Shown piece after piece: positions 1 to 15,433 of a DNA stretch of 15,433 nucleotides; position 1 is the stretch's first letter; every line of letters begins with the position of its first letter. The position numbers were made by a program, and so were the translations under genes. The stretch is taken from the IMG/VR virus record IMGVR_UViG_3300014970_000025, one strand, 5' to 3'. The stretch is from a virus. Lineage: Duplodnaviria > Heunggongvirae > Uroviricota > Caudoviricetes. The notes under the pieces are model-generated. The model was not told where the DNA came from and ran no database searches. It saw only the letters and a program-made list of their open reading frames with translations.

Positions 1-831
1 ACTCAGTAATATCCATTTTGCAATATCTATGAATTATTTGTGAGACGTATATTAATGAACATTGCAAGGGCTCACAAGCAGTAGTGTTGAGAAAACCATC
101 GGGGAAATGAGGCTAAGCCTTTGAATTTACAAGTACAAAAAAGATACTTTTCCTCATAATGTGAATTAATTTTATGTTTCGTTTGATGATTGGACCGGTC
201 TCGAAAACCGGAGTAGGGGCAACTCTACCGGGGGGGCAAATCCCCCTCTCTCCGCCACTTTATCAATGACTTATCTCCCGACTTCCCGCCTTGCTTTTCC
301 TAAACAGAACAATCGTAGAATATTCTTGAAGGGTTAGATCGTCACTGTTTTCTGTTCGATACTGTGACATTCAGCACTTGATTCGCTATGGATCTGACAG
401 GAAGGTTTCGAGCGAAAATCTGCAGTTATTCAGTCGTTTTCTTATCGGTCACCATTATTCTTTTAGACATTGATCCTACAAAGCTGCCGCAAAGTTGGTG
501 GTGGGAACTGAAGTTGCGTAGAGAAGGGGTCAATACCCGGAGGCAAACATGGGCTGGCAAAAGTGTAGCGGTATTAGGCGCAGCTATTTAGCCTAGTTAT
601 GTTTTATGAAAACTTGATATCATATAAGTGTCTTACTTATTGGCTGTAAATAAGGTTTTCTAAGGAATTGTTTCTTTAGTATCATTTGTAACTGTAACGG
701 AATTTATAATCCTTTGCTTTATTTTTACGGTATTTTTTATCACACCCTATTTTTTGTGTGGTTTTTTATACTGAAGTTTGGCAAAGTGAACTTTATATGC
801 ATATACTTCATCCTGGTTTCAGTTAAATTGG

Positions 832-1584
832 GTGGATGATATGGCAACTACATGTTCAGTTATATTGATTTTGGAGTCCTTTGATGTTTATTTCGGAAAA
901 GAGAGAGTGTTTCTGGATAGAGGTTTATCTGTACTTGTCGACTCTAGCTATAGAGATTTTTTCCTGACATATCCTGAAAGAGTGATAGTGGCGGATTTTG
1001 GCGCTGAGTTTATTAGTCGCTATTTGAAAGCTAATAACTTAAGGGATATTTCTGATTGTAGGGAATATCCATCTTATTTAAAAATAAACTTTGCTGACTT
1101 CAGTTTAATTAAAGGATTAATTAGTTGGGCTAATCACTGTGCTGAATATATAGAAATTTTTGATGAGTCTATTGCTTTTACATGTCTCTCTGCATTTTCT
1201 TCTGAAAAACAATTTGGAGTATTTCTGTTTGGATGTTTGAAAAGCACAGGGGCTAAAGTTAAAACGATTATTCATACGGATTTATCTGCACCATGGCATC
1301 TTAAGGATATATCATCAAGATTATATCTCAGCGAAAGTTTACTAAAGAGGAAATTGAAAGAAGAGGGGGTATCATTCAGTAAGATCATACTTGATGAGAG
1401 GATGCAAATGGCTGAATATTTACTCAGCACTCGTTGTTATCCTGTTAGTAAAGTAGCTAAGGTCTGTGGTTATGCCAGTGTCTCATACTTTACTTATGTA
1501 TTTAGACGTTATTTTGGTGTTTCTCCAAGTCAATACTCTCAGAGGAGTTCAGAAAGTAAAATTCTTACTCACCAGGGAATCTGA
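832..1584 (+). CDS. AraC-family transcriptional regulator, AppY/EnvY/AdiY-like (250 aa)
   Basis: Intact 250-aa ORF. C-terminal double HTH region (WHLKDISSRLYLSESLLKRKLKEEGVSFSKI...VAKVCGYASVSYFTYVFRRYFGVSPSQY) matches the AraC/XylS signature and resembles, from memory, E. coli AppY ([22 protein letters not shown]...QKCGYNSTSYF). Preceded by a very AT-rich upstream region (600-830), typical of horizontally acquired AraC regulators. Start may be 832 or 841. Confidence 0.85.
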   Translation: MDDMATTCSVILILESFDVYFGKERVFLDRGLSVLVDSSYRDFFLTYPERVIVADFGAEFISRYLKANNLRDISDCREYPSYLKINFADFSLIKGLISWANHCAEYIEIFDESIAFTCLSAFSSEKQFGVFLFGCLKSTGAKVKTIIHTDLSAPWHLKDISSRLYLSESLLKRKLKEEGVSFSKIILDERMQMAEYLLSTRCYPVSKVAKVCGYASVSYFTYVFRRYFGVSPSQYSQRSSESKILTHQGI

Positions 1585-1625
1585 TCATTGTTCTTGCCCC
1601 CTTATTTCCAGACAGGGGGTGTATC

Positions 1626-2062
1626 TTAAGTTAACGTTACCCGCTGACGTCGATATTCTCGCGGAGAGCGATAACCCAACGCACTGTGCGGATGGTTTTC
1701 ATTGTAATGTTCGATCGCCACTGCAAGATTATGCAATGCCGTTCTTACATTCGGTTTCGGCATGAACGCGATGTAGTCTTCCTTCATCGTTTTCACGAAC
1801 CTTTCTGCAATTCCATTACTCTGAGGACTGCTGATTGCCGTTGTGCAGGGCTCCAGATTCAACTCTCTGGCGAACTGCCGTGTTTCATGCGCTCTATACG
1901 CTGAACCGTTATCTGTCAGCCACTGGATGGACTGTTCCGGTACTTTATCGCCAAAGCGTTTTTCTATCGCTCCTAACATGACATCCTGCACTGTCGCTTT
2001 ATCGTAACCTCCCGTGCTTGCGGCCCAGTCTATGGCTTCACGATCGCAACAGTCCAGGGCGA
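1626..2062 (-). pseudogene. IS3-family (IS2-like) transposase OrfB, C-terminal fragment (rve/DDE integrase core remnant)
   Basis: Minus-strand translation ...[51 protein letters not shown]...[14 protein letters not shown] matches the C-terminal end of IS3-family OrfB and resembles IS2 InsD as recalled. The frame is open only to an in-frame stop near 2063; the N-terminal part and OrfA are absent; no inverted repeats identified. Confidence 0.8.
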
Positions 2063-2338
2063 TTCATCTGGGCCAATCCTTGCTCATAACAGGCATTCAC
2101 TTCAGTCATGGCAGAAAGGTATGCATGCTGGAGAAGTCGTGAAAGAAAAGAAGACTGCTGCGCCGTTTGTCGTCACGTTTATCTTCATTGGCTATGCAAG
2201 TCGTAATACAAGGTGGGACAAAACTGAGACACATAAGGCCTCGCAATGGCTTGCAAGGCTTTACATGTTTTGATGTGGTGGGACGTGTGAGCGCAGTGTT
2301 GATGGGGTAATGCTTTGAATTAGAAGCGGATTCTTATA

Positions 2339-2384
2339 ATTCGTAATGCGAAGGTCGTAGGTTCGACTCCTATTATCGGCACCA
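2339..2384 (+). repeat. thrW: 3' 46 nt of tRNA-Thr(CGU) gene (anticodon loop to CCA): attachment-site core / direct repeat; not a complete tRNA
   Basis: ATTCGTAATGCGAAGGTCGTAGGTTCGACTCCTATTATCGGCACCA matches, from memory, the 3' part of E. coli thrW (T-arm GGTTCGACTCC, acceptor 3' strand, CCA). The 5' half (GCCGATATAGCTCAGTTGG...) is not present upstream, so this is a partial copy, as left at junctions of tRNA-integrated elements. Confidence 0.75.
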
Positions 2385-2989
2385 TCAAGAAAATCAATAA
2401 CTTAGCTTAACTTCTCTAAGAAATTGTATCTTCTGTTATCACTTACAAACGCCTATACGTTGTTATGGGCTTTGGTAGTGTAACACGTATGGGCGAGTAG
2501 TTCCCAGGCTCAACCTCGTAACAAGTTCCTTTGAAGCTGGAAGACGTGCCACCGTCTCTAAACCTTCTACCAAAACTCTTAGCAAGATGTTCCACACCTG
2601 GCGCGGTGTCCAATGATGCTACACGTCGTGAGACGTTGCAGAGGATAAACAGGCTAAATGATGGGAAGAGTTTTAAGTGCAATAGTGGATTAAAGCCCAC
2701 CTCTTCAAAACCTAACTTGATCGGGAAAGAATCAAGCTCTAGCACGGTTTCGTCCACCGGAGTACAACGGGTGCCTGATAAGAGAAGAACTGCTAAGACT
2801 TCATAGCTTTTGTGAAAAAGCCCTTTTTAGTGGATACGCCTACGGCGCTTATTTTTTGGTATAACCATCAAAGGCGCTTTATGGCTCCTATTGTCTTGAA
2901 AATGTATCTTTACTTGTATTGTGTTTTATGCGTAGTCTCCCTGTGTAGTATGTAACTTGTTAATTTTCATATGAATACAGAGGCAAACG

Positions 2990-3480: not shown

Positions 3481-3491
3481 TCCCCTCCCTT

Positions 3492-3875: not shown

Positions 3876-3894
3876 GAGCACGAGAGGGCTTCTA

Positions 3895-3922
3895 TTGACT
3901 TTTGTATGCTATGAAATATAAT
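3895..3922 (+). promoter_or_regulatory. near-consensus sigma-70 promoter (TTGACT-N16-TATAAT)
   Basis: TTGACT at 3895-3900 and TATAAT at 3917-3922, 16-nt spacer; directs rightward transcription into an ORF-poor region. Confidence 0.5.
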
Positions 3923-4356: not shown

Positions 4357-4576
4357 ATAAATTCTTTTATCTTTAAAGAATAATTATAGGGATACCCGTT
4401 GGATGTAACGATGGGTTACATCGGCAGATGACCGGGGGGGTCGGTCACGATGACCGGGGGGGGTCGGTCACGATGACTGACAATAAGATTACTTTAATAA
4501 TACTAATAATAAAACTAACATCTATAATACTAATAAATTCTTTTATCTTTTAAGAATAATTATAGGGATACCCGTT
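4357..4576. repeat. 44-bp direct repeat pair (43/44 identical) flanking a hairpin and tandem G-tract palindromes
   Basis: DR1 4357-4400 and DR2 4533-4576: ATAAATTCTTTTATCTTT(A/T)AAGAATAATTATAGGGATACCCGTT. Between them: hairpin GATGTAAC-gatgg-GTTACATC (4402-4422); tandem units GATGACCGGGGGGGTCGGTCAC (4427-4448) and GATGACCGGGGGGGGTCGGTCAC (4449-4471), each containing the palindrome TGACCG-N7-CGGTCA; partial third unit 4472-4480. Confidence 0.8.
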
Positions 4577-4581
4577 AGGGG

Positions 4582-4655
4582 AGTCTAACGACTATCCCTT
4601 AATCTATTGGCATTCGCCAGAACCTTGCACAAGTTAGAGTGTTAGTCGTTAGACT
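4582..4655. repeat. 12-bp perfect inverted repeat AGTCTAACGACT / AGTCGTTAGACT separated by 50 bp
   Basis: Arms at 4582-4593 and 4644-4655. The core CTAACG recurs at 4823-4830 (TCTAACGA) and in a bulged hairpin GCGTTACCCC-ttt-GGGGatgcTAACGC at ~4889-4914. Confidence 0.7.
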
Positions 4656-5183
4656 GCTTGTCATAACACATAGTTTTTGTTTGTTGATGTTAGTTAGTAG
4701 ATCTATGTTCGCTAATGCCGCTCACAACGAATATGTAATCTACTATGTGCAAATAGCCTACGGCTTGCGTAAGGCTAAATAGTCTTGCGCTGTGCGCAGA
4801 ACGATAATTAACTAACTACCATCTAACGATCATCAATCATCTAAAATAAATTTCTTGTGCAATGTTCTTGCGAATGCAATTAGGGTAGCGTTACCCCTTT
4901 GGGGATGCTAACGCATAACTATAGATCAACCATCAAACAGACAAAAAAGAAAAATATGGTTTAAAGATGTTAGGTAGTAGATGAGTTTCTACCGCTTAAA
5001 TCAAGCCGTAGGCGAGCAAAACAACCTCTACATAAGGGAATGTATTGTTTTTATCAAAATCTCGTCAGAATGCGTTTTAGAGCGTTTTAGCGGATAATGA
5101 AGAATAGCACCACACAGGAGAGCACGAATTGATAAGAAAAAATGTAAGCGCATGAAAAAGATCAGGTTTTTTATGAAAAGGTA

Positions 5184-5212
5184 TTGACAAATGTTTCTTT
5201 ATATGTAATAAT
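5184..5212 (+). promoter_or_regulatory. sigma-70-like promoter (TTGACA-N17-AATAAT with upstream TG)
   Basis: TTGACA 5184-5189, TGT then AATAAT 5207-5212; sits ~120 bp upstream of the first gene of a + strand gene cluster. Confidence 0.5.
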
Positions 5213-5330
5213 AGGTATTAAAGGGACAGGAAAATATTCTTATCCTCTAAGTAATTAAACCAATGCACCGCACTTTGAAGCCCAAGGCTTGCAAGGTGTC
5301 TATTTCTTTTAACTGAATAAGGAGTTTTTT

Positions 5331-5513
5331 ATGAAATGGTTTACATCGGAACGCGTCGTAGAGGCATTTAAAAAAGGTGAGCTAACACGACATCAAATAG
5401 TAATGAATCGTAATATGGCAAGGAGTCGAGGTTATCCAGAGCGTGAAAAATGCTTTGACGATGCACTAAAAATTATTGATGAACTGCGTAAGGCAGAGGC
5501 AGAGAAAGAATAA
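5331..5513 (+). CDS. small hypothetical protein (60 aa)
   Basis: Strong SD (AAGGAG, 6-nt spacing) before ATG 5331; product MKWFTSERVVEAFKKGELTRHQIVMNRNMARSRGY..., no family recognised. Confidence 0.55.
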   Translation: MKWFTSERVVEAFKKGELTRHQIVMNRNMARSRGYPEREKCFDDALKIIDELRKAEAEKE

Positions 5514-5534
5514 TAACAAGAGAAGGAGAAAACT

Positions 5535-5705
5535 ATGAGCGAAACTACAGAAAAGAAAAGACAACCACGCACTTGCTTTCATATTCCTGATGAAGTATTT
5601 CAGGTGTTATTTAAAGAAGCAAGAAGTAAACGTATCACTGTTACAGATTACATTCTTGATATGTTGAAAAGAGAGGCTGAAACACTCTCAAATAAAAGCA
5701 AGTGA
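5535..5705 (+). CDS. Arc-like ribbon-helix-helix (RHH) DNA-binding protein (56 aa)
   Basis: SD AGGAG before ATG 5535; below ORF-track cutoff. CFHIPDEVFQVLFKEARSKRITVTDYILDMLKRE aligns by eye with P22 Arc (FNLRWPREVLDLVRKVAEENGRSVNSEIYQRVMESF): beta-strand followed by two helices, RHH pattern. Confidence 0.65.
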   Translation: MSETTEKKRQPRTCFHIPDEVFQVLFKEARSKRITVTDYILDMLKREAETLSNKSK

Positions 5706-5759
5706 TTTTTATCACCATAGTAGCGCCGTAGAGCGTGATTACATACAGGAGATTTTTTA

Positions 5760-6386
5760 ATGATTAACCAACCAACTTTTACAAAACACTATGACACGTT
5801 CGATAACATCTCGAAGATTTACTCTGATAAATTGCCTCAAGGAAAAGATTTAGAGCTATTACACATTGTGCTTTATTTTCGATTTCTTAGTTATCAGGAG
5901 AACAATCTTAATTGTTACGAAAGTCACGAGACATTAGCTAAGATTTTTAAGGCTTCGGTATCAACGATTCAACGTAAGATTAAAGATCTTAAGGAGATGG
6001 GGTTATTAGATACATCCCCGCACTCTGATCCTAACATTACATCCCTTGTTTATACTGCTCTCCCTCTCACAGATGCACACATTACACCACCGGAAGACGT
6101 GAAATTCGCTGTAAACGTAGAACGGGCTGCACCTGAATATCAGGAAACATTAGAAGCGACACACTCTATTGAGCAGGAAACACAGGAATCAGCGTTCCCT
6201 GAGCGGCCCGAAATTTTTACTTGGCTTCTTTCCCTTGATAAGAAGAAACCACCACACGAAGAAACAGAAGATTTTGTAAAACGAGCATTAGATTCAAAGA
6301 ATATCTATCTTTGTGAAAATGATTTTGACTCTTTGATAATTGATCTCAAAAGTGAGAGCACAATATATGATTCACTACCCTTCTAA
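5760..6386 (+). CDS. winged-HTH DNA-binding protein, replication-initiator/organizer-like N-terminal domain (208 aa)
   Basis: SD AGGAG before ATG 5760. N-terminal LLHIVLYFRFLSYQENNLNCYESHETLAKIFKASVSTIQRKIKDLKEMGLLD follows the pattern of phage/plasmid Rep-type winged-helix domains; C-terminal half acidic and unassigned. Confidence 0.7.
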   Translation: MINQPTFTKHYDTFDNISKIYSDKLPQGKDLELLHIVLYFRFLSYQENNLNCYESHETLAKIFKASVSTIQRKIKDLKEMGLLDTSPHSDPNITSLVYTALPLTDAHITPPEDVKFAVNVERAAPEYQETLEATHSIEQETQESAFPERPEIFTWLLSLDKKKPPHEETEDFVKRALDSKNIYLCENDFDSLIIDLKSESTIYDSLPF

Positions 6387-6521
6387 GGAGAATAAATGAC
6401 TTATAACATCACAAACAATCAATAACAACAGATCGGGCAATACATATGGCAAATGCATTTATGGCGATATTCATCGTAACAATGGCATTCAGTTTTTATA
6501 ATCCACATAAAAAGAGGGAAA

Positions 6522-6905
6522 ATGGGAAGAAAGAAGAAGAACAACTTAAAACGTATTGAAAAAAACAGTAACTTCAATTCAACAAGACAACGTCCACCGA
6601 CACACACCAATAACGAAATTCCAGGGGAAGAGATAATATTTATTCTTGAAACAGAATCCCCTGAATTAAGCGATGAAGAATTAGAAATAATCCAGTCAAT
6701 GCCAGGCGTTTACTTTCGCCCAAGAACAAGAAAACAAACTATCATTTCTGATGGCACTCTGAAACGTTGGCAGCTTTTAGGGTTTAGCTCCTATCATCAT
6801 TTTTTGGGATTTAACGCTTTCAATAATTGTGTAGGTGGTGCATCGGAAGTCGATCTGATGGCTCATTTAGAAGATACATTAGCTTCTAACAAACGTTCTA
6901 ACTAA
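6522..6905 (+). CDS. hypothetical protein (127 aa), basic N-terminus and acidic middle
   Basis: SD GAGGG before ATG 6522; no family recognised. Confidence 0.5.
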   Translation: MGRKKKNNLKRIEKNSNFNSTRQRPPTHTNNEIPGEEIIFILETESPELSDEELEIIQSMPGVYFRPRTRKQTIISDGTLKRWQLLGFSSYHHFLGFNAFNNCVGGASEVDLMAHLEDTLASNKRSN

Positions 6906-6920
6906 TAAAATGATGGGCGT

Positions 6921-7166
6921 ATGTATAAGCGCCCAATGAAAATATTCAAAAAAGGAAAAATAATGATTGGCTATATTCAAGAAACACAATTATTTCAGAT
7001 GATCCTGTCTGATGCAAAAAACTATGCTGAGTTAATCCGACTGGCAAAAGAAACAGAAGACTACGAAGCATTAGAGCGTTATCGTGATGAAGTGCTGACG
7101 CTCAAGACACCTTTTAACATCGTATTGAATATGATTAATGATGCATTACAAGGAGAAGCCGCATAA
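6921..7166 (+). CDS. small hypothetical helical protein (81 aa; alternative start 6963 gives 67 aa)
   Basis: Internal ATG 6963 has the better SD (AAGGAAAAATAATG). Stop overlaps the next start (TAATG at 7164-7168), suggesting translational coupling. Confidence 0.45.
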   Translation: MYKRPMKIFKKGKIMIGYIQETQLFQMILSDAKNYAELIRLAKETEDYEALERYRDEVLTLKTPFNIVLNMINDALQGEAA

Positions 7167-7474
7167 TGGAAGAAGATATTAGCAATGCAATGGAACAACT
7201 TTTAGATCTGACTATCTCACTACAAACAAGAATAAATCAAGCCTATTCAGATTTATGTGATTACACGCTCTCTCAATGCGTTATTAGCTTAATGAAGGTG
7301 AATGTAAGCCTTGACGATTTTATCTCTCTGGTGAGCGATTTAGAGCTATCAGAGGACGATGCAAAACAGTGTAATCAAATCATCACAGACATCGCCACCA
7401 CGTTAAAGGTTGCAAGTGAAGAGATTCAGCAATTAGTAGATGATTTAGCAAAAAGTGCTATTTTCTCTAAATGA
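7166..7474 (+). CDS. acidic helical hypothetical protein (102 aa)
   Basis: Start overlaps the upstream stop; product rich in D/E/L/I; no family recognised. Confidence 0.55.
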   Translation: MEEDISNAMEQLLDLTISLQTRINQAYSDLCDYTLSQCVISLMKVNVSLDDFISLVSDLELSEDDAKQCNQIITDIATTLKVASEEIQQLVDDLAKSAIFSK

Positions 7475-7487
7475 TAATGAAAATTAT

Positions 7488-7516
7488 TTGCATTTATAAT
7501 GATTTTGTTATATAAT
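7488..7516 (+). promoter_or_regulatory. near-consensus sigma-70 promoter (TTGCAT-N17-TATAAT)
   Basis: TTGCAT 7488-7493, TATAAT 7511-7516, plus a second TATAAT at 7495-7500; followed by ~0.9 kb without any + strand ORF above ~25 codons. Confidence 0.5.
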
Positions 7517-8401
7517 AATTTTAGGGGTAGATAAAAAGATTTTAGTTGGTGTTAATCCTTCTACTGTCATAAATCCCTGCATATGGAAGGTGATAGCCTC
7601 AAAGGTTGAGTGGCATTAACCTCTAACAAATATTACCTTCCATCTCTCAAGAAGTTTTAGAATAATCATAACTCCCTCTTTGATTGTTGATTGTTTCTAC
7701 GTTGTGTTGATGAATGTTGTTAGGCATTGTGCTTAATTTTGATAAAAGCGGGTAGGTGTTATCTCCTTGCCCTTCCCGCTCTTATTTTTCATCTATGCTT
7801 ATCCTAAAGCTCCTTATTTTGTCCGAAAACATTAAAGAGCCTTACACTGATAGTTATATTTTATAACTATTTACTAACATCATTAAACTCTTATTTAATG
7901 ACGGAAGTTAGTAACAGAATAATCTATTAAGTTGTTGTCAAAAAACTATCATCTGCATAGCGTTAGCCGCAAGTAGAGAGAGTTTAGCTAAGAATGGTGC
8001 AATAAACTTTGGAAATATTGATAGCAAAACGGGTTTTATAGAATGCGGATCTATAAGCTTTGGTTGTAAAAACGATTTTCTGAAACGGTAGATTACTGTT
8101 GGTGTAGTTAATCCTATTAAAATTTGATCTGTGAGTAGATTAGAATTGGAATAGTGATTCCTTAAAGCCTTACTTTGTTGCATCCACAGCAAAAACAGGC
8201 AGCGGTTTAGCCCCCGCATCGAATAGCAGGATCGTAGATTCCAAAGGGTTGGCCCCTCCTAAGAGCCAATTTCTCCTGCGGTCCTGTTATTCACCCTTAA
8301 CATATCTCTAAGCGTATTTATAAAAGTATTCTTAGAGATAACGTTAAACCTCCTCAAAGTTGACTTATCACAATATGTATTTTGCCCGATACAAAATAAA
8401 T

Positions 8402-8452
8402 AAGCCCCTTGCTATTGTTGATTGAACCTCTTATAGCCTGGGGCTTTTTATT
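8402..8452 (+). terminator. stem-loop followed by T-run (possible intrinsic terminator or RNA 3' structure)
   Basis: AAGCCCC (8402-8408) pairs with GGGGCTT (8440-8446), followed by TTTTATT; loop is long (31 nt) so classification is tentative. Confidence 0.3.
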
Positions 8453-8480
8453 ACTCGGAACATAACGGAATCGTTATTTT

Positions 8481-8690
8481 ATGAAACAAGAAATTATCCT
8501 GAAATATGGCAATGAAAAGTTAACACTAACTGAGGATGTGTTGAATGCTACAGCCTACGCGCTTGGCATCACTCCTACAGAATTAAAGAAACAGTGTGAA
8601 CGTCTTTATAAGGCTGACAGCAATAAACCATCTCACCAAGATTTGATTAATGCTAAAGCTCAACAAATCAAACAATCTAAGGAAAAATAA
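8481..8690 (+). CDS. small hypothetical protein (69 aa), possible HTH-like segment
   Basis: Stop overlaps the start of the next gene (TAATG at 8688-8692). Segment ATAYALGITPTELKKQ is HTH-like. No family assigned. Confidence 0.5.
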   Translation: MKQEIILKYGNEKLTLTEDVLNATAYALGITPTELKKQCERLYKADSNKPSHQDLINAKAQQIKQSKEK

Positions 8691-9064
8691 TGGCTATTTT
8701 AAAATTAAGCGATGTTTTCCCACATCGTAAAAGCATCACTGACGTAGTGAGCTATGCAACCGACCCTTACGCGGCTGTAGAAAGCAAAAAATTTGCAGCA
8801 CTTGCACAAGATGTAACGTGCGGCGACCTCATTGATTCATCCGGCGCTAAATATGTTAGCGGCGCTGATGTTCTTGTCGTTGTGTCTGACTTCGTAACTG
8901 CTGATTCAAATAAAACAGTTAACGTGCTTCGTGCTAATGCCGGACTCGTTTGCATCAAAGCTGATGCCCTGAATGCCGAAGGCGCTGTAAAAGAAGCTGC
9001 TATTGCAGCTCTCGCTGCTAAAGGCTTCCAGCTTGAAGGCTTCCACTCTGTTTTCACATCTTAA
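8690..9064 (+). CDS. putative head decoration protein (lambda gpD/SHP-like position and size, 124 aa)
   Basis: SD AAGGA; lies immediately upstream of an E-like major capsid gene, as D does in lambdoid head modules; size typical; Ala/Val/Gly-rich. Assignment rests mainly on synteny and composition. Confidence 0.45.
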   Translation: MAILKLSDVFPHRKSITDVVSYATDPYAAVESKKFAALAQDVTCGDLIDSSGAKYVSGADVLVVVSDFVTADSNKTVNVLRANAGLVCIKADALNAEGAVKEAAIAALAAKGFQLEGFHSVFTS

Positions 9065-9080
9065 GAAGGAATAAATAATA

Positions 9081-10109
9081 ATGATTATCGGAAATGAAGT
9101 GGTTGATCTTGCTCCACTGTTTGAATTAAACGATACCCGTAACTATCTGCTGTCTACTCTGGATTTTACTGATCCTGTGCCTGTAGAAAGTCACAAAGTG
9201 GCTGTTTCCCAGCTTATCGAGAGCAATGAATCTCTGTTCAACCATCCTACAAGCCGTTTTAGCTCTGAGCATAACGTTACTAAACGTGAAAACGCGGAAG
9301 AGTGGCTGATTGAAATTCCTTATTTCCTGCGTGAAGACCTGATCACACCGCAGGACGTGCAAGGCAAACGAAAAGCCGGAAGCTCTATTGAAGAAACACT
9401 GCCGGATCTGTATGCGGAATATATCGCTAAACACAATGTTGCATTCCAGCGCACTAAAGAAAGCATCCTCGCGGCTTCTCTGTTCTCTGGCAAGACGCAT
9501 ACCCCGAAAACTGACGATGTTCTGATCGACTACAGCACTCTGTTCGGTGTGTCTCCAATGACTGCAACCGTTGACGCATCCAGCACCAACACAATGACTG
9601 TGTTCAAACAGTTTGACCAGATGCATACGGATATGATTGCTAAAGCACAAAGCCAGGCTGCAACCATTGAGCGTGTTGTTGTGTTCTGTAAGCCTGCGGC
9701 ATTCAACGCTATTCGTTACAGCGTTGGCATGGTTAATGCGTTCCAATATGCAAGCCCTGTAGACGATGCAAACGTGGTGTTTAATGTGCGCTCTCTGCTG
9801 CCTGGTGTAACTACTTTCACCATTCCAGGAACTAACATTGATCTGATCAAAGTGACTGATCCGCTGCTGCTGGCACATATGACCGCAGACGCTGTAGCTG
9901 TTCCTAAATTCGCTAAAGGTGCAGGTGTTTACCAATCTATTTATGGCGCTCCTTCCAGTTCCTTCGATCTGCTGTCTCAAGGCGCTAAAGAGTATTACAG
10001 CTATGCTTTCGAATCGAATCGCGGCGACGCAGTGCACGTAGTGACCGAGAATAGCTCGCTTGTGGTTAACCACGGTGTTGGCTTCTCTGTGCAGATCACA
10101 GTAGCGTAA
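9081..10109 (+). CDS. phage major capsid protein, lambda gpE-like family (342 aa)
   Basis: SD AAGGAA; length nearly identical to lambda gpE (341 aa); C-terminus ...VVNHGVGFSVQITVA resembles gpE ...DPDEFVSVQLA and internal ERVVVFCKPAAFNAIRYS resembles gpE NIIVFDPKGWALFRSF (by recall). Confidence 0.8.
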   Translation: MIIGNEVVDLAPLFELNDTRNYLLSTLDFTDPVPVESHKVAVSQLIESNESLFNHPTSRFSSEHNVTKRENAEEWLIEIPYFLREDLITPQDVQGKRKAGSSIEETLPDLYAEYIAKHNVAFQRTKESILAASLFSGKTHTPKTDDVLIDYSTLFGVSPMTATVDASSTNTMTVFKQFDQMHTDMIAKAQSQAATIERVVVFCKPAAFNAIRYSVGMVNAFQYASPVDDANVVFNVRSLLPGVTTFTIPGTNIDLIKVTDPLLLAHMTADAVAVPKFAKGAGVYQSIYGAPSSSFDLLSQGAKEYYSYAFESNRGDAVHVVTENSSLVVNHGVGFSVQITVA

Positions 10110-10273
10110 AAAGTGTTAAAGACGTTCCCCTACGTCTGGAAATAATCGGGGGGCAATAAGGGTAAGGAGATTAACTAACCTGTAGGCGCAAATACAGTAA
10201 CGAATCTCTTTGCCCTTTTTGTTTTTCTACTGTCTACAAATCCAAATAAAAATATATATGTGAGAGAAAACCA

Positions 10274-10471
10274 ATGAACACAGAAAATTCACAGGCATTA
10301 ATTCTTAAATCTGTAAAAGAACTGGCAGCTATTAGCGATGACTCAATAATCAATGTCAGTGCCTTATGCAGAATGCTTTCAATTGATGCAAATAATGTGC
10401 GGCAGCGTGTGTTTCAGACCGGGTGCAGCACTTTCGAAGCAATCCAATATTATTGTTCTAAAAAACAATAA
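10274..10471 (+). CDS. small hypothetical protein (65 aa)
   Basis: Weak SD; segment VSALCRMLSIDANNVRQR is HTH-like; uncertain. Confidence 0.35.
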   Translation: MNTENSQALILKSVKELAAISDDSIINVSALCRMLSIDANNVRQRVFQTGCSTFEAIQYYCSKKQ

Positions 10472-10505
10472 CAAACAACAATCATAATACAGGGAAACAA
10501 TCAGT

Positions 10506-12347
10506 ATGTTAGAACTAAACGTGGCACGCCTCTCGAACGTTGTCACCTTCGAAGTTAACCGACCATCATTAGAGAAAGCAAAAGCAGAAGTAGAAAAACT
10601 TCGTAAACAAATGGCGGCGGTGAAAGATATAGAATTGCGTGTTAAGACACATAAACAATCAACCGCTAAAGCAAAAAAAGACGTAGACGATATTGCTAAA
10701 AAGCAAGCACAGGCAGATAAAGCCAATGCTAAAGCACAATTAGCCGCTCAACGTGTAGTTGCAAGAGAACAAAAAGCCCTGGCAGCACGGAAAGAGAAGG
10801 CTGAATTAAAGCTTTTAGACGTTGGAGCAAGCATTAGCGCATTGCACCGTCTTTCTGTAGCGGAACAATATAAAGCTATTGCACAGGCTAGAGAAATTGC
10901 CCTCCAATATGAAAGAGGCGCTATTAGTCTGGCACGTATGAATAGCCAAATGAAACGCCTACAACAGCAACAACGTAAGATTAATGGCAATCGTAACGCT
11001 CACGCTAAAGCCTATGCACCTGTTAAGGGTAGCGGGAGTATTGGCGGCGGTGCTGCGGCTGTTATGCTGGGTGGCTTAGGCGCTGGCGCTGCATATATGG
11101 CTATGAGCAAAGCTTCTGAATTTGTTACTAACAGCTTTGCGAATGCTGAAACGCTGGGAGAATTGTATAGCCGTGCGAAGCTGGGCGGTGTAGACGTTAA
11201 CCAGATGAACAATATTGAGCAATGGGCGTATAAAAACGGCGTTGATTCAATGATGGGGGATCAAGGTAAACGTAAGTATCTCGATCAGATGAAAGATGTG
11301 CGTGAGCGTGCAACCAAAAGCTATGATGAGGCTGAATATGTAGTCGATAAAAAAACAGGCAAAGGTGAATGGAAGGGCGGCGATAGCGGCATCAACGTTC
11401 TCATGAACGAAGGATTCTTAACTAAGAAAGATTTGAAAGACTTTGCTGATAATCCTGCTGGCCTGGTTAGTAAAGCAGTTCAGGGAATGGTAGCTAAAGG
11501 CTATTCAGATGCACAAATCGGTAGTCGTCTTGAAGACTTGGGCGATGATTTGATGCTCACCTCTAAATACTGGACACGCTCCGCTAAAGAAGTGGAACAA
11601 TCAGCACGAGAACAACGAGAATCAGGGCGCTGGGTAACACAGGCACAACAGGAAAGCGTTATTAAATTCCGTGAACTGAATAATGCACTTAGTGGGCTTT
11701 CTGACTCACAAGGGATCGCCTTTGTTGATGGCTTTATGAAATCTCTTGATCCGAAAGTGATTGAAGAGTTTAAAAAGAGCATGGTTGCAATGCTGCCAAT
11801 GTTTACCAAATTAGGCGAGGCTATCGGCGGATTGGTTAACGCTGTAATGAAAGCAATCAACTGGCTGATGAAAAACGACGAGAAGACGGCAGCTATTCAG
11901 AAGAATTTAGGTGATGCACCGCCACTATCTAACGAAGGAATGAAGCAGAATCTTTCTAATCTCACTCCTGATCAATATAAAGGCGCTGGCACCGGAACAA
12001 CTAAGCCAGATAACAGCAATTCCCTGGTTAACACTATTAAAAGCTGGTTTATGCCAGAAGAAACGGTAGGTGGGGCGCAGGCTGTAAATCAATACAGTCT
12101 CGAAGGACAAAACATTGCAAATCTGAAACAGAGTGCAGCACAACAAGCTTTCAAGGCTCCTTCTTACACCTTTGCACCTGTTATTAACTTCAATCCAGAA
12201 TTACAAGTAAATGCAGAAGTGCCGCTAACTATCGAATCAGACACCGGACGATTGAGCGAATTTATCGACTTCAAATCAAAGGCATCCTCCGCTGAGTTTA
12301 GCAAGCTATTAACGCTGGGTGTTATGTCAGGCGGGTCAACCTATTAA
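10506..12347 (+). CDS. tape-measure-like protein: long Lys/Ala/Gln coiled-coil N-terminus, Gly-rich hydrophobic segment, large C-terminal region (613 aa)
   Basis: Residues ~20-170 are heptad-like charged helix (EKAKAEVEKLRKQ...KAQLAAQRVVAREQKALAARKEKAELK), followed by GSGSIGGGAAAVMLGGLGAGAAYMAMS (membrane-like). This architecture is typical of phage tail tape-measure or ejection proteins. No enzymatic motif seen. Confidence 0.5.
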   Translation: MLELNVARLSNVVTFEVNRPSLEKAKAEVEKLRKQMAAVKDIELRVKTHKQSTAKAKKDVDDIAKKQAQADKANAKAQLAAQRVVAREQKALAARKEKAELKLLDVGASISALHRLSVAEQYKAIAQAREIALQYERGAISLARMNSQMKRLQQQQRKINGNRNAHAKAYAPVKGSGSIGGGAAAVMLGGLGAGAAYMAMSKASEFVTNSFANAETLGELYSRAKLGGVDVNQMNNIEQWAYKNGVDSMMGDQGKRKYLDQMKDVRERATKSYDEAEYVVDKKTGKGEWKGGDSGINVLMNEGFLTKKDLKDFADNPAGLVSKAVQGMVAKGYSDAQIGSRLEDLGDDLMLTSKYWTRSAKEVEQSAREQRESGRWVTQAQQESVIKFRELNNALSGLSDSQGIAFVDGFMKSLDPKVIEEFKKSMVAMLPMFTKLGEAIGGLVNAVMKAINWLMKNDEKTAAIQKNLGDAPPLSNEGMKQNLSNLTPDQYKGAGTGTTKPDNSNSLVNTIKSWFMPEETVGGAQAVNQYSLEGQNIANLKQSAAQQAFKAPSYTFAPVINFNPELQVNAEVPLTIESDTGRLSEFIDFKSKASSAEFSKLLTLGVMSGGSTY

Positions 12348-12357
12348 TCATCACTGT

Positions 12358-12373
12358 GGGGCTGTTTAGCCCC
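12358..12373 (+). terminator. GC-rich hairpin GGGGCT-gttt-AGCCCC with weak U-tract
   Basis: Perfect 6-bp stem, 4-nt loop, 10 nt after the stop of the 613-aa gene; followed by CTTAAAT rather than a strong T-run. Confidence 0.35.
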
Positions 12374-12394
12374 CTTAAATAAGGATTACAAATT

Positions 12395-13072
12395 ATGGCA
12401 ATGGGTCCGTTAACCATTGGTCGCCCGACTGAGGCGAAAATCAACAGCACAAGCAACGATAGCAACGGTAGAACAACCAAAGGGGGTAACGGCTTTGCGA
12501 TCATTGCCTCTAACCTCGGCAGTGGTGCAAATGCTGCTTACAATGACTACCAGGCATTATCATTTGATAGCGTGGAATCGACGAAAGTTAGCAGAAATGC
12601 GGACGTTACAAGCTATGCCGTCGAATCAGGATCAGAAGTTAGTGATCATGTTCAAATACGGAATAACAAGTTCACATTACAAGGGCGTATCTCTGAAACC
12701 GTATTGAAGCTCAATCCCGATATGATTAAGAATGCGGGAATTAACGGCAATAGACGTATGCTTATGCTTGAATACCTAAATCAGTTGATGGACAGTCGCC
12801 AACCTTTCCTACTTGTCACTGAGTTAAAAAATTATGACAACGTTGTGTTAGTTGGCATGTCTTACGAAGAAGAAGCAAGCGAAAGTATATTGTTTACTCT
12901 TGATTTTGAGCAAATTCGTCTTGTCTCTAAGGCCACCACTAATGCTATTGCTGTAAAAACAGCACCAAATAAATCTGTAGGGGGACAGGTTAAAATGCAG
13001 GTAAATACAACAGAACAGAAAAATCAAAAAAGCCCAGGGCAAGACGTTGTAACACCAGTATTTAAACAATAG
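12395..13072 (+). CDS. hypothetical protein (225 aa), Ser/Thr/Asn-rich N-terminus; possible virion-associated protein
   Basis: SD AAGGA 9 nt upstream; follows the tape-measure-like gene; no family recognised. Confidence 0.6.
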   Translation: MAMGPLTIGRPTEAKINSTSNDSNGRTTKGGNGFAIIASNLGSGANAAYNDYQALSFDSVESTKVSRNADVTSYAVESGSEVSDHVQIRNNKFTLQGRISETVLKLNPDMIKNAGINGNRRMLMLEYLNQLMDSRQPFLLVTELKNYDNVVLVGMSYEEEASESILFTLDFEQIRLVSKATTNAIAVKTAPNKSVGGQVKMQVNTTEQKNQKSPGQDVVTPVFKQ

Positions 13073-13153
13073 CCTTAAACGCCTATGAAACGCTCTGTAA
13101 CGATGTAATTATAAAAGAGGCTACCAATCTATGTTGAAGCCTCCTTATTACGT

Positions 13154-14488
13154 CTATGGCGTTGTTTTACGCCTTAAATTTGATTTTTTATTGATTGATA
13201 AGCCTTTCTCTATTTCAGGGTAGCGTAAAAGCTCAATATATTTTTTAAGCTCTACTGGAGAAGCTGCATTTTTGCTATATGTGCGGAATGTTTCTGTATT
13301 GCCGCGTGTATGGCCCAGGAGAAGGGCGATCCTGTCTTCTGGAATTTGATTTCGATCAAGAAGCTGTGCTACTCCGTGTCTCAGAGAATGAAACACTTTC
13401 CTTTCTGTTCCCTTTTCCCCTAAAGCCTTTCGTTTAGCTCTTGTAAATCGTTGTGTATGCCACGTAGAGCGTTTACCGTCAGCACGTTCTGTAATGCTGG
13501 CGTGATAGAACAAAAAGCCATTGTGAGGCTTTTCACGCAGCGACAACACCAACGGAGTGATAAGGCTATGTACAGGCACAACACGTGCCGCTGCTTTCGT
13601 CTTTCCCTGTGTGATTTCAAAACACAGCACACCTTCGATCTCTTTCACATCGTCTATTGTGAGACTTGCTATCTCATTGATCCGCATACCTGTATATAAA
13701 CCGATAAGACACAAAGCCGTCATTTCTTTGTTTTCTGCTGAATTACCGGAAAATACTTGCAACACCTGCAATAGCTCTTTGTTAGAAAATGCCTCGTAGC
13801 TCTCTCTACTTTGTGCCACATCAAGCCTATGCCCTCGCCAGGGGGAGAGCGCCCTTTCTGGCGCATCGTGGTAACGTGATGAAGCTAACTCCCATAGCTG
13901 GGCCATTGGGCTGATATAATTTGCAATTGATTGTTGTGAAAGAGTTTTTTGCATGTGTTCAATCCAGCCTGTAACAGTGGTGCGGCTTACGTCTTGCAAT
14001 GCAATATCAGGCTTTTTACGGTAGGAGAGAAACATCTCTACCGCTTTTCTTGCCTTAGCTAAAGTGGCTGGCTTCTTCTTCGTGCTGTTAATTGTCAGGT
14101 AGATTTCAAGAATTTTAAGCAATGACGGACACGAAGACGCTGTATCTTGCATTCTGGTAGCTGTTTTGGCGTATTTAGCCTTACTGCGTAACAGTTCCAG
14201 CGTGTTTTCTATTGTGCTGTTTACAGGGGCAACACTCTCCCGTAAGCAATGGTATTCATCTGCAATCTGATCACGCTTTCTACGTGCAACACGAAGATTA
14301 CTTGTGTGCAGACTTCTGACAAACGTCCTTTTTCCTTCAAAAAAGGGCTGCATATACACAGGCAGCGTGATCCTTAAATAGTAGTTACCGTAAGAATCAC
14401 AGATTAAGTATTGGTTAGGCTTGTATCTCATAAAATCTCCGGCTAAAGTGTCGGAGCGTTTGTAATGTGAAAATTGATTGTGACGCAT
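13154..14488 (-). CDS. tyrosine site-specific recombinase (phage/P4-type integrase, 444 aa; alternative start at 14431)
   Basis: Catalytic-domain motifs TGMRINE (Arg), HSLRHGVAQ (His-x-x-Arg), LLGHTRGNTETFRTYSK (His, Tyr nucleophile); N-terminal YLRITLP...FFEGKRTFVRSL typical of tRNA-site integrases; lies adjacent to a tRNA-Thr-derived repeat. Confidence 0.9.
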   Translation of the reverse strand: MRHNQFSHYKRSDTLAGDFMRYKPNQYLICDSYGNYYLRITLPVYMQPFFEGKRTFVRSLHTSNLRVARRKRDQIADEYHCLRESVAPVNSTIENTLELLRSKAKYAKTATRMQDTASSCPSLLKILEIYLTINSTKKKPATLAKARKAVEMFLSYRKKPDIALQDVSRTTVTGWIEHMQKTLSQQSIANYISPMAQLWELASSRYHDAPERALSPWRGHRLDVAQSRESYEAFSNKELLQVLQVFSGNSAENKEMTALCLIGLYTGMRINEIASLTIDDVKEIEGVLCFEITQGKTKAAARVVPVHSLITPLVLSLREKPHNGFLFYHASITERADGKRSTWHTQRFTRAKRKALGEKGTERKVFHSLRHGVAQLLDRNQIPEDRIALLLGHTRGNTETFRTYSKNAASPVELKKYIELLRYPEIEKGLSINKKSNLRRKTTP

Positions 14489-14528
14489 AGAAAATGATTA
14501 TTTTTCTATAAGATTCAATCAATTAGTA

Positions 14529-14591
14529 ATGGTCGTAGGTGATGGCATTAACACGAGATTAATCGAGTGTTTTACTCCTATTATCGCACCA
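14529..14591 (+). pseudogene. degenerate tRNA-Thr 3'-end copy (ptwF-like att remnant)
   Basis: GGTCGTAGGT (14531-14540) ... ACTCCTATTATCGCACCA (14574-14591) matches the thrW 3' end except for a ~33-bp insertion replacing the T-loop and one missing G; same orientation as the 2339-2384 copy. Confidence 0.6.
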
Positions 14592-14717
14592 TTAAAATCA
14601 AAGAGTTACCCCATATTTAAATACACCACGTTTCCTCCTGTGCCGCATTTGTGCCATTGTAACCTTGGCAATTCATCAAAATACTGTTCTGACATCAGGC
14701 AGTGCAGGTGCAGCTAT

Positions 14718-15128
14718 TTAAACCAATTGCTGCCGCCATTCTTTGACGTAGTCAATCAGGGCGCGGAGCTTTGGTGCAATATTGCGACGCTGTGGGAAAT
14801 ACAGATAGAAGCCCGGAAATTGTGGAAGAAAGTCATCAAGCAGCGATACAAGCTTACCGCTTTCAATATATGGCCTGAAAGTTTCCTGAGTGGCAATTGT
14901 TATTCCTCCGCCGGCAAGAGCCAGCCTCAACATCAGACGCAGATCATTAGTCGTAATCTGCGGTTCAATCGCAAGGTCGAAAGTTCTCCCGTTTTCTTCA
15001 AATGGCCAGCGATAAGGCGCAACCTCCGGGGACTGACGCCAGCCGATACACTTATGGGTATTTCCCCCGGAGGCGAGAAAGCGCTCTCCACGCCCGGCCG
15101 CAAGGATCAGGACGACGGGGGCAGGCAT
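14718..15128 (-). pseudogene. LysR-family transcriptional regulator, C-terminal substrate-binding-domain fragment (no HTH)
   Basis: C-terminus ...LALAGGGITIATQETFRPYIESGKLVSLLDDFLPQFPGFYLYFPQRRNIAPKLRALIDYV is a typical LysR C-terminal end. The N-terminal HTH is absent because the upstream gene ends at ~15104. Consistent, from memory, with the yagP pseudogene next to ptwF in E. coli K-12. Confidence 0.65.
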
Positions 15129-15433
15129 GAATCCTCCTCCTGATGGAGACGTACAGAGGCGACTTCTGCCAGCACGGAGAGTGCCAGAGTATGCGCATCC
15201 CGGGCTTTGGGGAATATCCCGACGGGTGCCCGGATTTGCGTTGTTTCCTCCCTGGACCATCCCAGCTCGTGGAGCTTTTGCAGACGTAACGTGTGGGTTC
15301 GATAGCTGCCCAATGCGCCGAGATAAAAGGGTTTTGCTTCTCGCGCGGCCTGCAACACTGGCAGCTCCCGGTTGAGATCATGGCACAGCAAAATGACCGC
15401 CGTGTCGGTATCGATCTGAGCGCTGGCTGAGGC
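15104..15433 (-). CDS. XdhC/CoxI-family molybdenum-cofactor insertion chaperone (PaoD-like), C-terminal part; gene continues beyond window end
   Basis: Minus-strand frame is open to the window edge: ...DTDTAVILLCHDLNRELPVLQAAREAKPFYLGALGSYRTHTLRLQKLHELGWSREETTQIRAPVGIFPKARDAHTLALSVLAEV, characteristic of XdhC C-terminal domain; GC-rich, core-genome-like composition. Confidence 0.7.

What the first reader, a model, noticed from the sequence alone, without database searches (positions are those of the whole stretch)
14529..14591. Integrase-adjacent att copy is degenerate (33-bp insertion) while the distal copy is perfect
The repeat next to int has the T-loop replaced by unrelated sequence and lacks one G, whereas the copy at 2339-2384 is an exact tRNA 3' end. 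Neither is a full tRNA, so the functional thrW presumably lies further left, implying tandem elements at this hotspot. The decayed int-proximal site suggests this element can no longer excise precisely, unless the integrase uses a different core.
Basis: partly seen in the sequence, partly recalled or inferred. Interest (0 to 1): 0.4.

Follow-up and report, generated by a model that had tools for sequence, protein, structure and literature searches.

The report
Normal attachment site, not decayed
The "degenerate" tRNA-like repeat next to the integrase is the ordinary, conserved end of a 12-kb mobile island in the E. coli thrW tRNA hotspot, so it is an ordinary finding and gives no evidence that the island is stuck.

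Summary
The reading as decay is mostly wrong. The window is the E. coli proA-thrW...yagP-paoD hotspot. A 12.2-kb island (2386-14573) has a DUF6538-type tyrosine integrase at its right end. The same island lies directly beside intact thrW in O104:H4 and O26.

The integrase-side sequence, including GGTCGTAGGT and the 33-nt "insertion", was identical in every copy read. These copies abut at least four different right-hand neighbours. A matching segment is present in 445 of 5426 complete E. coli genomes. A Citrobacter relative (integrase 55% identical) has a homologous arm. The arm is therefore island DNA. The repeat this integrase uses is only the last 20 bp of thrW (ACTCCTATTATCGGCACCAT).

The missing G is a minority polymorphism: 19 copies beside yagP and 6 of 73 beside the vat island. 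It also occurs beside three unrelated islands and in five full-length thrW genes, at island-free sites and directly beside vat. That pattern fits a crossover 5' of the G, with the lesion moving between attR and thrW.

The perfect distal copy (2339-2384) is the thrW fragment displaced by an upstream neighbour, a lambdoid prophage in the comparator strain. This confirms the tandem array.

The parts
1..2338 (.). Right end of the upstream neighbour, a lambdoid prophage or island remnant. It includes an AraC-family gene at 832-1584 and an IS integrase-core remnant at 1626-1991 (-).
   Evidence: window 1-2386 is 99% identical in many E. coli, including O157:H7. (in strain 2018-10-2CC this is the distal end of a lambdoid prophage whose integrase abuts intact thrW).
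2339..2384 (+). A 46-nt exact thrW 3' fragment (anticodon loop to CCA). It is the displaced fragment (attR) of the upstream neighbour, and its last part serves as attL of the 12-kb island.
   Evidence: No tRNA gene by ARAGORN. A similar junction behind a different left-hand prophage occurs in ET791 (L033).
2366..2385 (+). attL core of the island, ACTCCTATTATCGGCACCAT (20 nt, with GG).
   Evidence: This is the only block identical between attL and attR in GG copies (L005, L008, L010). Coordinates.
2386..2685 (+). Left (P') arm of the island. It has an IHF-consensus match AATCAATAACTTA at 2392-2404 and TTACAAACGC at 2443-2452, the inverted partner of 14456-14465.
   Evidence: The same sequence follows intact thrW in O104:H4, NCCP12480 and AHB22. 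Repeat analysis. The IHF match is by eye against WATCAANNNNTTR.
5760..6386 (+). HTH protein resembling phage replication initiators.
   Evidence: Pfam HTH_36. PHROG replication-initiation families at E about 1e-6.
9081..10109 (+). Major capsid protein, lambda gpE-like family.
   Evidence: PF03864, E = 9e-19. phrog_29. 24-26% identity to phi92/rV5-like myovirus head proteins.
10506..12347 (+). 613-aa protein with weak similarity to tape-measure proteins.
   Evidence: phrog_16051, E = 4e-32. No Pfam family.
12395..13072 (+). Dit-like tail/baseplate protein.
   Evidence: PF21821, E = 1e-27. phrog_817.
13154..14431 (-). Full-length tyrosine integrase (425 aa) with DUF6538, SAM-like and catalytic domains. 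The 444-aa ORF starting at 14488 is an upstream extension.
   Evidence: 98-99% identical over the full length to the integrases of NCCP12480, O104:H4 and O26. The motifs TGMR, KTK, HSLRH, LLGH and RTY are visible in those alignments.
14432..14573 (+). Integrase-side (P) arm of the island. It holds a hairpin over the int ribosome-binding site (14437-14456), GCGTTTGTAA (14456-14465) and a diverged pseudo-thrW stretch TTAGTAATG-GTCGTAGGT (14523-14540).
   Evidence: Identical in all E. coli and IMG/VR copies read. Alignable throughout with the Citrobacter arm. Hairpin.
14541..14573 (+). The '33-nt insertion', an ancient part of the arm. It contains the dyad AACACGAGATTAATCGAGTGTT (14550-14571).
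   Evidence: Homologous in Citrobacter as AACACAAGATTTATCGCGTGTT. The dyad occurs once in the window against 0.01 expected.
14574..14592 (+). attR core, ACTCCTATTATCG-CACCAT (19 nt, one G missing).
   Evidence: The one-G form is a minority allele.
14593..15433 (.). Chromosomal flank: a yagP remnant (about 14718-15056, -) and the 3' part of paoD (from about 15107, -).
   Evidence: Identical to the flank of an unoccupied thrW (L004). Annotation transferred from NZ_CP009050.1.

Best explanation
Window 14529-14591 is the ordinary right junction (attR) of a 12.2-kb thrW-specific integrative island. The island carries capsid-like and tail-like genes, so it may be a phage satellite. Its DUF6538-type tyrosine integrase recombines within the last roughly 20 bp of thrW, ACTCCTATTATCGGCACCAT, which runs from the end of the T-loop to one base past CCA. 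The crossover most likely lies within ACTCCTATTATCG, the T-stem/acceptor-stem 'J' sublocation defined in Islander. Everything to the left of that block, including GGTCGTAGGT and the 33 nt, is the island's own arm. That arm is an old, diverged pseudo-copy of the thrW 3' half, split by a conserved insert that contains a palindrome. It travels with the island and did not decay in place. The missing G lies on the chromosomal side of the crossover. It is a lesion of the displaced tRNA end that stays with the flank. Excision would pass it into thrW, and the next island to integrate would replace it with its own good 3' end. The perfect distal copy is the thrW fragment left when another element integrated into thrW after this island; in the comparator strain that element is a lambdoid prophage that crosses over in the anticodon loop. 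The fragment's last 20 nt still serve as this island's attL. Shown: the arm is conserved, the contexts differ, the repeat is 20 bp, the array is tandem, and one-G thrW genes exist. Inferred: the exact crossover position, the shuttling of the lesion, and present-day activity.
For: (1) The same island lies directly between intact thrW and the yagP flank in O104:H4, NCCP12480 and O26, with the same arm.
(2) The 101-nt int-side segment is present in 445 of 5426 complete E. coli genomes. Nineteen IMG/VR proviruses contain the 43-nt arm probe exactly.
(3) In every copy read, the 70 nt to the left of the core are identical. The sequence to the right of GCACCA(T) falls into at least four classes: native yagP flank, vat/P4-like island end, a third island (TCTCCACTTC...), and the int end of the lambdoid prophage. 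This indicates repeated independent integrations, each carrying this arm.
(4) GG copies share exactly 20 bp between attL and attR. A related island at glyU (integrase 32% identical) shares only TTCGATTCCCTTCGCCCGCTCCA with its tRNA.
(5) A Citrobacter thrW-type relative (integrase 55% identical) has GCGAAGGTCGTAG, then a homologous insert of about 35 nt, then ACTCCTATTATCGCACCA.
(6) The one-G allele is a minority: 19 genomes are 100% identical over the yagP-flank query, and 6 of 73 in the vat context. It does not track the integrase allele, because the window's Int is as close to the GG-type O26 Int as to the O104 Int.
(7) The one-G allele also lies next to an intF-like island, a P4-like island and a third island.
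(8) It also occurs in five full-length thrW genes. The three inspected are thrW(one-G) directly followed by the yagP flank with no island (EC24.26) and thrW(one-G) directly followed by the vat island (SCU-176, VTB96815v).
(9) The island-free one-G site shares its flank haplotype with one-G copies that sit beside three different islands.
(10) The integrase is full length.
(11) The 'J' sublocation and tandem arrays are described in Islander (PMC4383910).
Against: No excised (attP) junction was found in IMG/VR or JGI metagenome contigs. No excisionase was recognised among the small ORFs. The crossover position is inferred from population patterns and has not been mapped. The same G loss is also seen in Citrobacter (one integrase allele, two flanks) and in a leuX-type relative. 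Shuttling within E. coli thrW cannot explain those cases. They could instead point to a mutational hotspot or to a crossover 3' of the G. One-G occurs on two yagP-flank haplotypes, so more than one origin or some recombination is needed. A 1-bp deletion in the right half-site could still lower excision efficiency in this particular copy.
Confidence: 0.75

Rival explanations
1. The int-proximal repeat is a decayed attachment site, damaged by an insertion in the T-loop and by loss of a G, so the island is fixed in place and can no longer excise precisely.
For: The interruption and the 1-nt deletion are real. No attP junction was found in public contig collections. No recognisable excisionase was found. 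Some copies carry IS insertions, for example JMF1 and SF-088.
Against: The 33-nt segment is identical in every copy read, beside at least four different neighbours. It is homologous in Citrobacter, so it predates these integrations. The G loss is absent from most copies. It is also found in island-free thrW genes in the same two contexts. The integrase is intact.
Confidence: 0.1
2. The crossover lies 3' of the G, inside GCACCA(T) at the very end of the gene. The G count would then belong to the island's attP, and one-G would be an island-borne variant that still integrates.
For: An identical Citrobacter integrase allele has one G beside two different flanks. O104-type islands with one G occur beside both the yagP flank and the vat island.
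Against: One-G does not track integrase or island subtype: JMF1 is a different subtype, and the window's Int is closest to the GG-type O26 Int. One-G plus the same flank also occurs next to three unrelated islands and in island-free thrW, which this model does not predict. The sequences 3' of CACCA differ completely between contexts, so the right half-site would have no conserved sequence.
Confidence: 0.15
3. The recurring loss of this one G is not inherited but arises repeatedly. It would be a mutational hotspot, or a scar of abortive strand cleavage next to TATC|GG, and perhaps is selected because it stabilises the island.
For: The same deletion appears in E. coli thrW-type, Citrobacter thrW-type and E. 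coli leuX-type copies, and on two flank haplotypes. No other core mutation was seen in the copies examined.
Against: There is no mechanistic evidence. Within E. coli thrW, shared flank haplotypes fit inheritance plus island turnover. The sampling of non-E. coli relatives is very small, at 2-4 loci each.
Confidence: 0.2

Closest known systems
tRNA-gene integrative islands with a displaced 3' tDNA fragment, including tandem arrays (the Islander principle; Hudson, Lau and Williams 2015, PMC4383910)
   Same: A tyrosine integrase, a target tRNA gene regenerated by island sequence, a co-oriented 3' tDNA fragment marking the far end, a short 'J'-type identity block (T-stem/acceptor junction to the 3' end), and several islands stacked at one tRNA, each with its own fragment.
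   Different: Within this window the left boundary is itself only a fragment, because a second element lies between it and thrW. The arm next to int also carries a diverged, interrupted pseudo-copy of more of the tRNA. That makes the fragment look longer and 'damaged'.
E. coli K-12 cryptic prophage CP4-6 (thrW ... intF-ptwF-yagP)
   Same: The same hotspot, the same chromosomal flank after CACCA, and an integrase at the end distal to thrW, next to the displaced fragment.
   Different: IntF is only 24% identical, over 152 residues of the catalytic domain. Its fragment is a clean 47-nt copy starting in the anticodon stem, which implies an anticodon-loop crossover. The gene content is unrelated.
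Phage satellites that carry capsid genes (cf-PICI) and P4-like satellites
   Same: Small size (about 12 kb), integrase at one end, a replication-initiator-like gene, a capsid gene, and tRNA integration in Enterobacteriaceae.
   Different: Pfam and PHROGs scans of about 18 of its ORFs returned no AlpA, primase, portal, protease, terminase, Psu, Sid or Delta match. The island instead has tape-measure-like and Dit-like genes. No helper or induction is known. Membership is not established.

Membership tests
tRNA-targeting integrative island (Islander definition) | A tyrosine integrase gene inside the island | tested here: met
   13154-14431 (-). PF00589 at E = 1.5e-17, plus SAM-like and DUF6538 domains. 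Full length relative to homologues.
tRNA-targeting integrative island (Islander definition) | A co-oriented tDNA 3' fragment at the end opposite the tRNA, forming a direct repeat with the tRNA 3' end | tested here: met
   20-nt repeat in GG copies and 19 nt (13 + 6) in this window, both on the + strand.
tRNA-targeting integrative island (Islander definition) | An intact target tRNA gene at the other end | tested here: not met
   The window has only a 46-nt fragment. The feature is met for the same island in O104:H4, O26, NCCP12480, AHB22 and BEN2908. Here a second element intervenes.
tRNA-targeting integrative island (Islander definition) | An unoccupied site in related genomes equal to the left flank, the core and the right flank | tested here: met
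   Z1322HEC0001 has thrW followed directly by the yagP flank. EC24.26 has the same with one G.
'J' sublocation attP (crossover at the T-stem/acceptor junction; PMC4383910 Table 1 footnote) | The identity block between island and tRNA starts in the T-loop/T-stem and runs to the 3' end | tested here: met
   The block starts at A58 of thrW and at T54 of glyU in the relative.
'J' sublocation attP (crossover at the T-stem/acceptor junction; PMC4383910 Table 1 footnote) | Strand exchange mapped to that junction | not testable with these tools
   Only inferred, from the G polymorphism lying on the chromosomal side.
CP4-6 / IntF-type thrW prophage | An integrase orthologous to IntF and a 47-nt ptwF-type fragment | tested here: not met
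   24% identity over 152 aa only. The fragment structure differs.
cf-PICI / PICI phage satellites | An int-alpA-primase/rep module plus a packaging set (capsid, portal, protease, small terminase), and helper-dependent induction | tested here: inconclusive
   Capsid-like and Rep-like genes are present. The Pfam and PHROGs scans of its ORFs returned no alpA, portal, protease or terminase match. Induction cannot be tested here.
P4-like satellites | A P4-type integrase (Arm-DNA-bind_3) together with Psu, Sid, Delta and alpha primase | tested here: not met
   None of these families was found. True P4-like neighbours are visible in L031 and L070 for contrast.

The most novel reading that the evidence does not exclude
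The roughly 33-nt insert with a palindrome that splits the pseudo-tRNA arm may be a functional module and not a relic. An analogous hairpin-bearing insert of about 31 nt sits in the leuX-type relatives. The module could be an operator or directionality-factor site next to the core. It could also be an 'insulator' that keeps rival integrases (anticodon-loop or T-loop types) and RecA from using this island's attR in a crowded tRNA hotspot. Separately, the recurrent loss of the same G in ...TCGGCACCA at thrW- and leuX-type junctions may mark the bottom-strand cleavage point, as a scar of abortive recombination.
Probability: 0.15. Interest if true: 0.55.

Novelty: new member of a known kind. Interest (0 to 1): 0.3.

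Why it matters
It removes a false lead. A tRNA-like repeat that looks damaged need not mean a dead island, because only the part on the crossover and tRNA-restoring side has to match. The comparison also yields three testable points.

1. A tRNA lesion appears to move between a displaced fragment and the live thrW gene as islands come and go. If so, excision can break a tRNA gene and the next integration can repair it.
2. A short palindrome next to the core is conserved across genera in this integrase family.
3. The island belongs to a widespread family of 11-12 kb elements in Enterobacteriaceae. They carry capsid-like genes and use thrW, leuX or glyU. I found no description of the family in the searchable literature.

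It also shows that published 'thrW PAI' spans can be composites. One example is the 20-kb PAI-APECO1-thrW listed in PMC7545054. APEC O1 carries this island's junction with the vat-type flank inside that span.

Tried and rejected
- Excised circular form: I searched for the predicted attP junction (P arm + core + P' arm) in IMG/VR and JGI metagenome contigs with two patterns. There were no hits.
- Integrase search of GTDB species representatives: one locus only, Escherichia sp. E1V33.
- Profile-based search of IMG/VR: almost only the same island again.
- Sigma-70 promoter scan of the int-att spacer: no int-strand promoter found.
- Pfam scan of eight small ORFs for an excisionase or AlpA: nothing.
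- The generic repeat finder did not report the att repeat, because of the indels. I found it by direct pattern matching.
- Literature searches for DUF6538, thrW plus satellite, and phi92/rV5 satellites: no description of this island. Williams 2002 (PMC100330) is not held, so the sublocation classes are cited from Islander.
- Island-borne one-G (crossover 3' of the G): considered and down-weighted once one-G turned up beside unrelated islands and in island-free thrW.
- IntF/CP4-6 homology: rejected.
- The 204-aa ORF at 14529-15143 that starts in the att copy: treated as spurious, because it lies antisense to the yagP remnant annotated on the opposite strand of the same flank.

Full report
**Observation**

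- Window 14531-14540 is GGTCGTAGGT, identical to thrW positions 45-54.
- Next come 33 nt (14541-14573) where the tRNA has only TCG.
- Next comes ACTCCTATTATCG-CACCAT (14574-14592), with one G fewer than the tRNA.
- Window 2339-2384 is an exact 46-nt thrW 3' end.
- ARAGORN finds no tRNA gene in the window.
- The matches are not chance. The 10-mer and the 12-mer core occur only at these two places. A match of 10 nt or more to the 5' part of thrW arose in 25 of 5000 shuffles of the arm.

**Where this is**

The window matches the E. coli proA-thrW ... yagP'-paoD region. The sequence after CACCAT at 14593 is the same flank that directly follows thrW in an unoccupied strain (L004). It also follows ptwF in K-12.

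Between the two repeats lies a 12.2-kb island with these genes:
- a replication-initiator-like HTH protein;
- a lambda-gpE-family capsid protein;
- a 613-aa tape-measure-like protein;
- a Dit-like protein;
- at the right end, a 425-aa tyrosine integrase with an N-terminal DUF6538 domain.

The integrase is full length and 98-99% identical to copies in other strains.

**The 33-nt 'insertion' belongs to the island**

In O104:H4 (NCCP15648), NCCP12480, O26:H11 11368, AHB22 and BEN2908, the island sits directly next to an intact thrW. Its integrase end carries exactly the same arm. The 101-nt integrase-side segment is present in 445 of 5426 complete E. coli genomes. Nineteen IMG/VR proviruses contain the 43-nt arm probe exactly.

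In every copy I read, the roughly 70 nt to the left of CTCCTATTATCG are identical. What follows GCACCA(T) falls into at least four classes:
- the native yagP flank, including diverged versions in cryptic Escherichia;
- the left end of the vat / P4-like island;
- a third island, starting TCTCCACTTC...;
- the integrase end of the lambdoid prophage.

The boundary between island and neighbour therefore lies at the end of the tRNA sequence. The interrupted tRNA-like stretch travels with the island through many independent integrations.

A Citrobacter freundii relative, whose integrase is 55% identical, has the same design. It reads GCGAAGGTCGTAG, then a homologous insert of about 35 nt, then ACTCCTATTATCGCACCA. 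The two arms align along their whole length. Inside the insert, the dyad AACAC-N2-GATTWATC-N2-GTGTT is kept in both. It occurs once in the window, against 0.01 expected by chance. The E. coli arm also reads TTAGTAATG-GTCGTAGGT against thrW TTCGTAATGCGAAGGTCGTAGGT. The arm is therefore an old, diverged pseudo-copy of the whole thrW 3' half, not a recently damaged one.

**The real repeat**

In copies with GG, the only block shared by the left and right junctions is ACTCCTATTATCGGCACCAT (20 bp). A related island at glyU (79% nucleotide identity in the structural genes, integrase 32% identical) shares only TTCGATTCCCTTCGCCCGCTCCA with its tRNA. Both blocks run from the T-loop to the 3' end. This corresponds to the 'J' (T-stem/acceptor junction) sublocation that Islander distinguishes from the anticodon-loop class (PMC4383910). 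By contrast, K-12 IntF is barely related (24% over 152 aa), and its fragment is a clean 47-nt copy starting in the anticodon stem.

**The missing G**

The one-G form is a minority.
- 19 genomes are 100% identical over the 101 nt that include the yagP flank. Many of them are O104:H4-type strains. The next rows carry one extra base.
- In the vat-island context, 6 of 73 genomes have one G.
- All 19 IMG/VR copies have GG.
- The allele does not follow the integrase allele or the island subtype.
- The same one-G sequence with the same yagP flank also lies next to an IntF-like island (J31), a P4-like island (S30) and a third island (L042).

Five complete genomes have a full-length thrW with the same deletion. 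I looked at three. EC24.26 has thrW(one-G) followed directly by the yagP flank, with no island. SCU-176 and VTB96815v have thrW(one-G) followed directly by the vat island. These are exactly the two contexts in which this island is found with a one-G attR. The sequences are exactly what recombination between attL (GG) and attR (one G) would leave if the crossover lies 5' of the G. Run in reverse, they are what an island carrying a good 3' end would repair on integrating.

The island-free one-G site shares its flank haplotype with one-G copies next to three different islands. The simplest reading has two parts. The G lies on the chromosomal side of the crossover, which places the crossover within ACTCCTATTATCG. 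The lesion then persists with the flank while islands turn over. This is inference from population patterns and has not been mapped.

Two things remain unexplained. One-G sits on two flank haplotypes. The same G loss also appears in Citrobacter (two flanks) and in a leuX-type relative. That suggests a hotspot, a recombination-linked scar, or selection.

**The perfect distal copy and the tandem array**

Window 1-2386 matches the right end of another element. In strain 2018-10-2CC, window 1-3000 is 99.2% identical. There it forms the distal end of a lambdoid prophage of about 40 kb, whose integrase abuts an intact thrW about 42 kb to the left. A similar junction behind a different left-hand prophage occurs in ET791. 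The opposite order, thrW-island-lambdoid prophage, occurs in several IMG/VR contigs.

The 46-nt copy is therefore the fragment displaced when an anticodon-loop-type element entered thrW after this island was already there. Its last 20 nt remain this island's attL. It is 'perfect' because it was the working tRNA end until that event. It cannot be seen in the window itself.

**Can this copy still excise?**

Evidence in favour:
- The integrase is intact.
- The arm is the normal one.
- The left core is perfect.
- The one-G form appears to have taken part in precise recombination in nature.

Evidence against, or still unknown:
- No attP junction was found in IMG/VR or JGI metagenome contigs.
- No excisionase was recognised.
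- A 1-bp deletion in the right half-site could lower efficiency.

If excision occurred from this array, it would leave a 45-nt one-G fragment next to yagP.

**Wider family (seen in passing)**

Homologous integrases at 55-65% identity head syntenic 11-12 kb islands in E. coli, Klebsiella, Citrobacter and Enterobacter.
- Many use leuX. Their integrase-side arm is a pseudo-leuX copy split by a different insert of about 31 nt, which carries the hairpin GCTTGC-N3/4-GCAAGC.
- A K. variicola relative has an uninterrupted 66-nt leuX copy.
- The capsid protein is only 24-26% identical to head proteins of phi92/rV5-like myoviruses.
- I found no paper describing this island family.

**Verdict**

The tandem-array inference is supported. 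The 'decayed, immobilised' interpretation is not supported. The feature is the ordinary attR of a thrW-specific island with a short 3'-terminal core, carrying a minority one-base polymorphism.

Noticed in passing
window 2386-14573; relatives L006, L059-L064, L068, L070, L071: The island belongs to a syntenic 11-12 kb family in E. coli, Klebsiella, Citrobacter and Enterobacter. The order is DUF6538 integrase, Dit-like (in some members), a roughly 615-aa tape-measure-like protein, a roughly 65-aa ORF, a capsid-E-like protein, small ORFs and a Rep-like HTH protein, often with a small recombinase. Targets are thrW, leuX or glyU. The capsid is only 24-26% identical to phi92/rV5-like myovirus head proteins. 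No description was found in the searchable literature, so this may be an uncharacterised phage-satellite family.
   Followed up: partly
window 14550-14571: An imperfect 22-bp palindrome, AACACGAGATTAATCGAGTGTT, lies inside the '33-nt insertion', 2 nt from the att core. It is conserved in the Citrobacter relative as AACACAAGATTTATCGCGTGTT and is unique in the window. It is a candidate protein-binding site of unknown partner.
   Followed up: partly
L059-L062, L068 (about 100-130 nt upstream of int), L070: leuX-type relatives have an analogous split arm: GTTGATTCAA(A) from the leuX anticodon arm, then an insert of about 31 nt with the hairpin GCTTGC-N3/4-GCAAGC, then a 43-nt exact leuX 3' end. 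L059 lacks the same G of CGGCACCA. L070 has an uninterrupted 66-nt leuX copy.
   Followed up: partly
H251-H255; L065, L066, L067: Five complete E. coli genomes carry a 75-nt thrW with a 1-nt deletion in the acceptor-stem 3' strand. It is still annotated as tRNA-Thr. The lesion probably impairs the tRNA, and its function was not tested.
   Followed up: partly
window 14456-14465 and 2443-2452: A 10-bp inverted repeat, GCGTTTGTAA / TTACAAACGC, has one copy in each arm of the reconstructed attP. These are candidate arm-type integrase sites. The left copy is partly conserved in Citrobacter.
   Followed up: no
window 14437-14456 (int 5' UTR, minus-strand sense): A hairpin, CTCCG...CGGAG, overlaps the integrase Shine-Dalgarno sequence. 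An equivalent CCC(Y)...GGGG stem is present in six of seven family members, with little covariation. It may control int translation.
   Followed up: partly
window 4357-4400 and 4533-4576: A 44-nt direct repeat (98% identical, 176 nt apart) lies in an ORF-poor, AT-rich stretch (about 3.9-5.7 kb) upstream of the Rep-like gene. It could be iterons or an origin.
   Followed up: no
L047, L049, L050, L023, L026, L029 compared with window/L002/L032: Both orders of the tandem array exist in nature: thrW-lambdoid prophage-island and thrW-island-lambdoid prophage. Each element has therefore integrated into thrW when the other was already present.
   Followed up: partly
window 2392-2404 and 14596-14608: Matches to the IHF consensus (WATCAANNNNTTR) lie just 3' of CACCAT. 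One is in the island's left arm (AATCAATAACTTA) and one is in the native chromosomal flank (AATCAAAGAGTTA). Matched by eye only.
   Followed up: no
window 14529-15143 (+) and 14432-14488: The 204-aa ORF that starts at the ATG of the att copy lies antisense to the yagP remnant and is probably spurious. The 444-aa integrase ORF likewise over-extends the 425-aa protein used by all homologues.
   Followed up: partly
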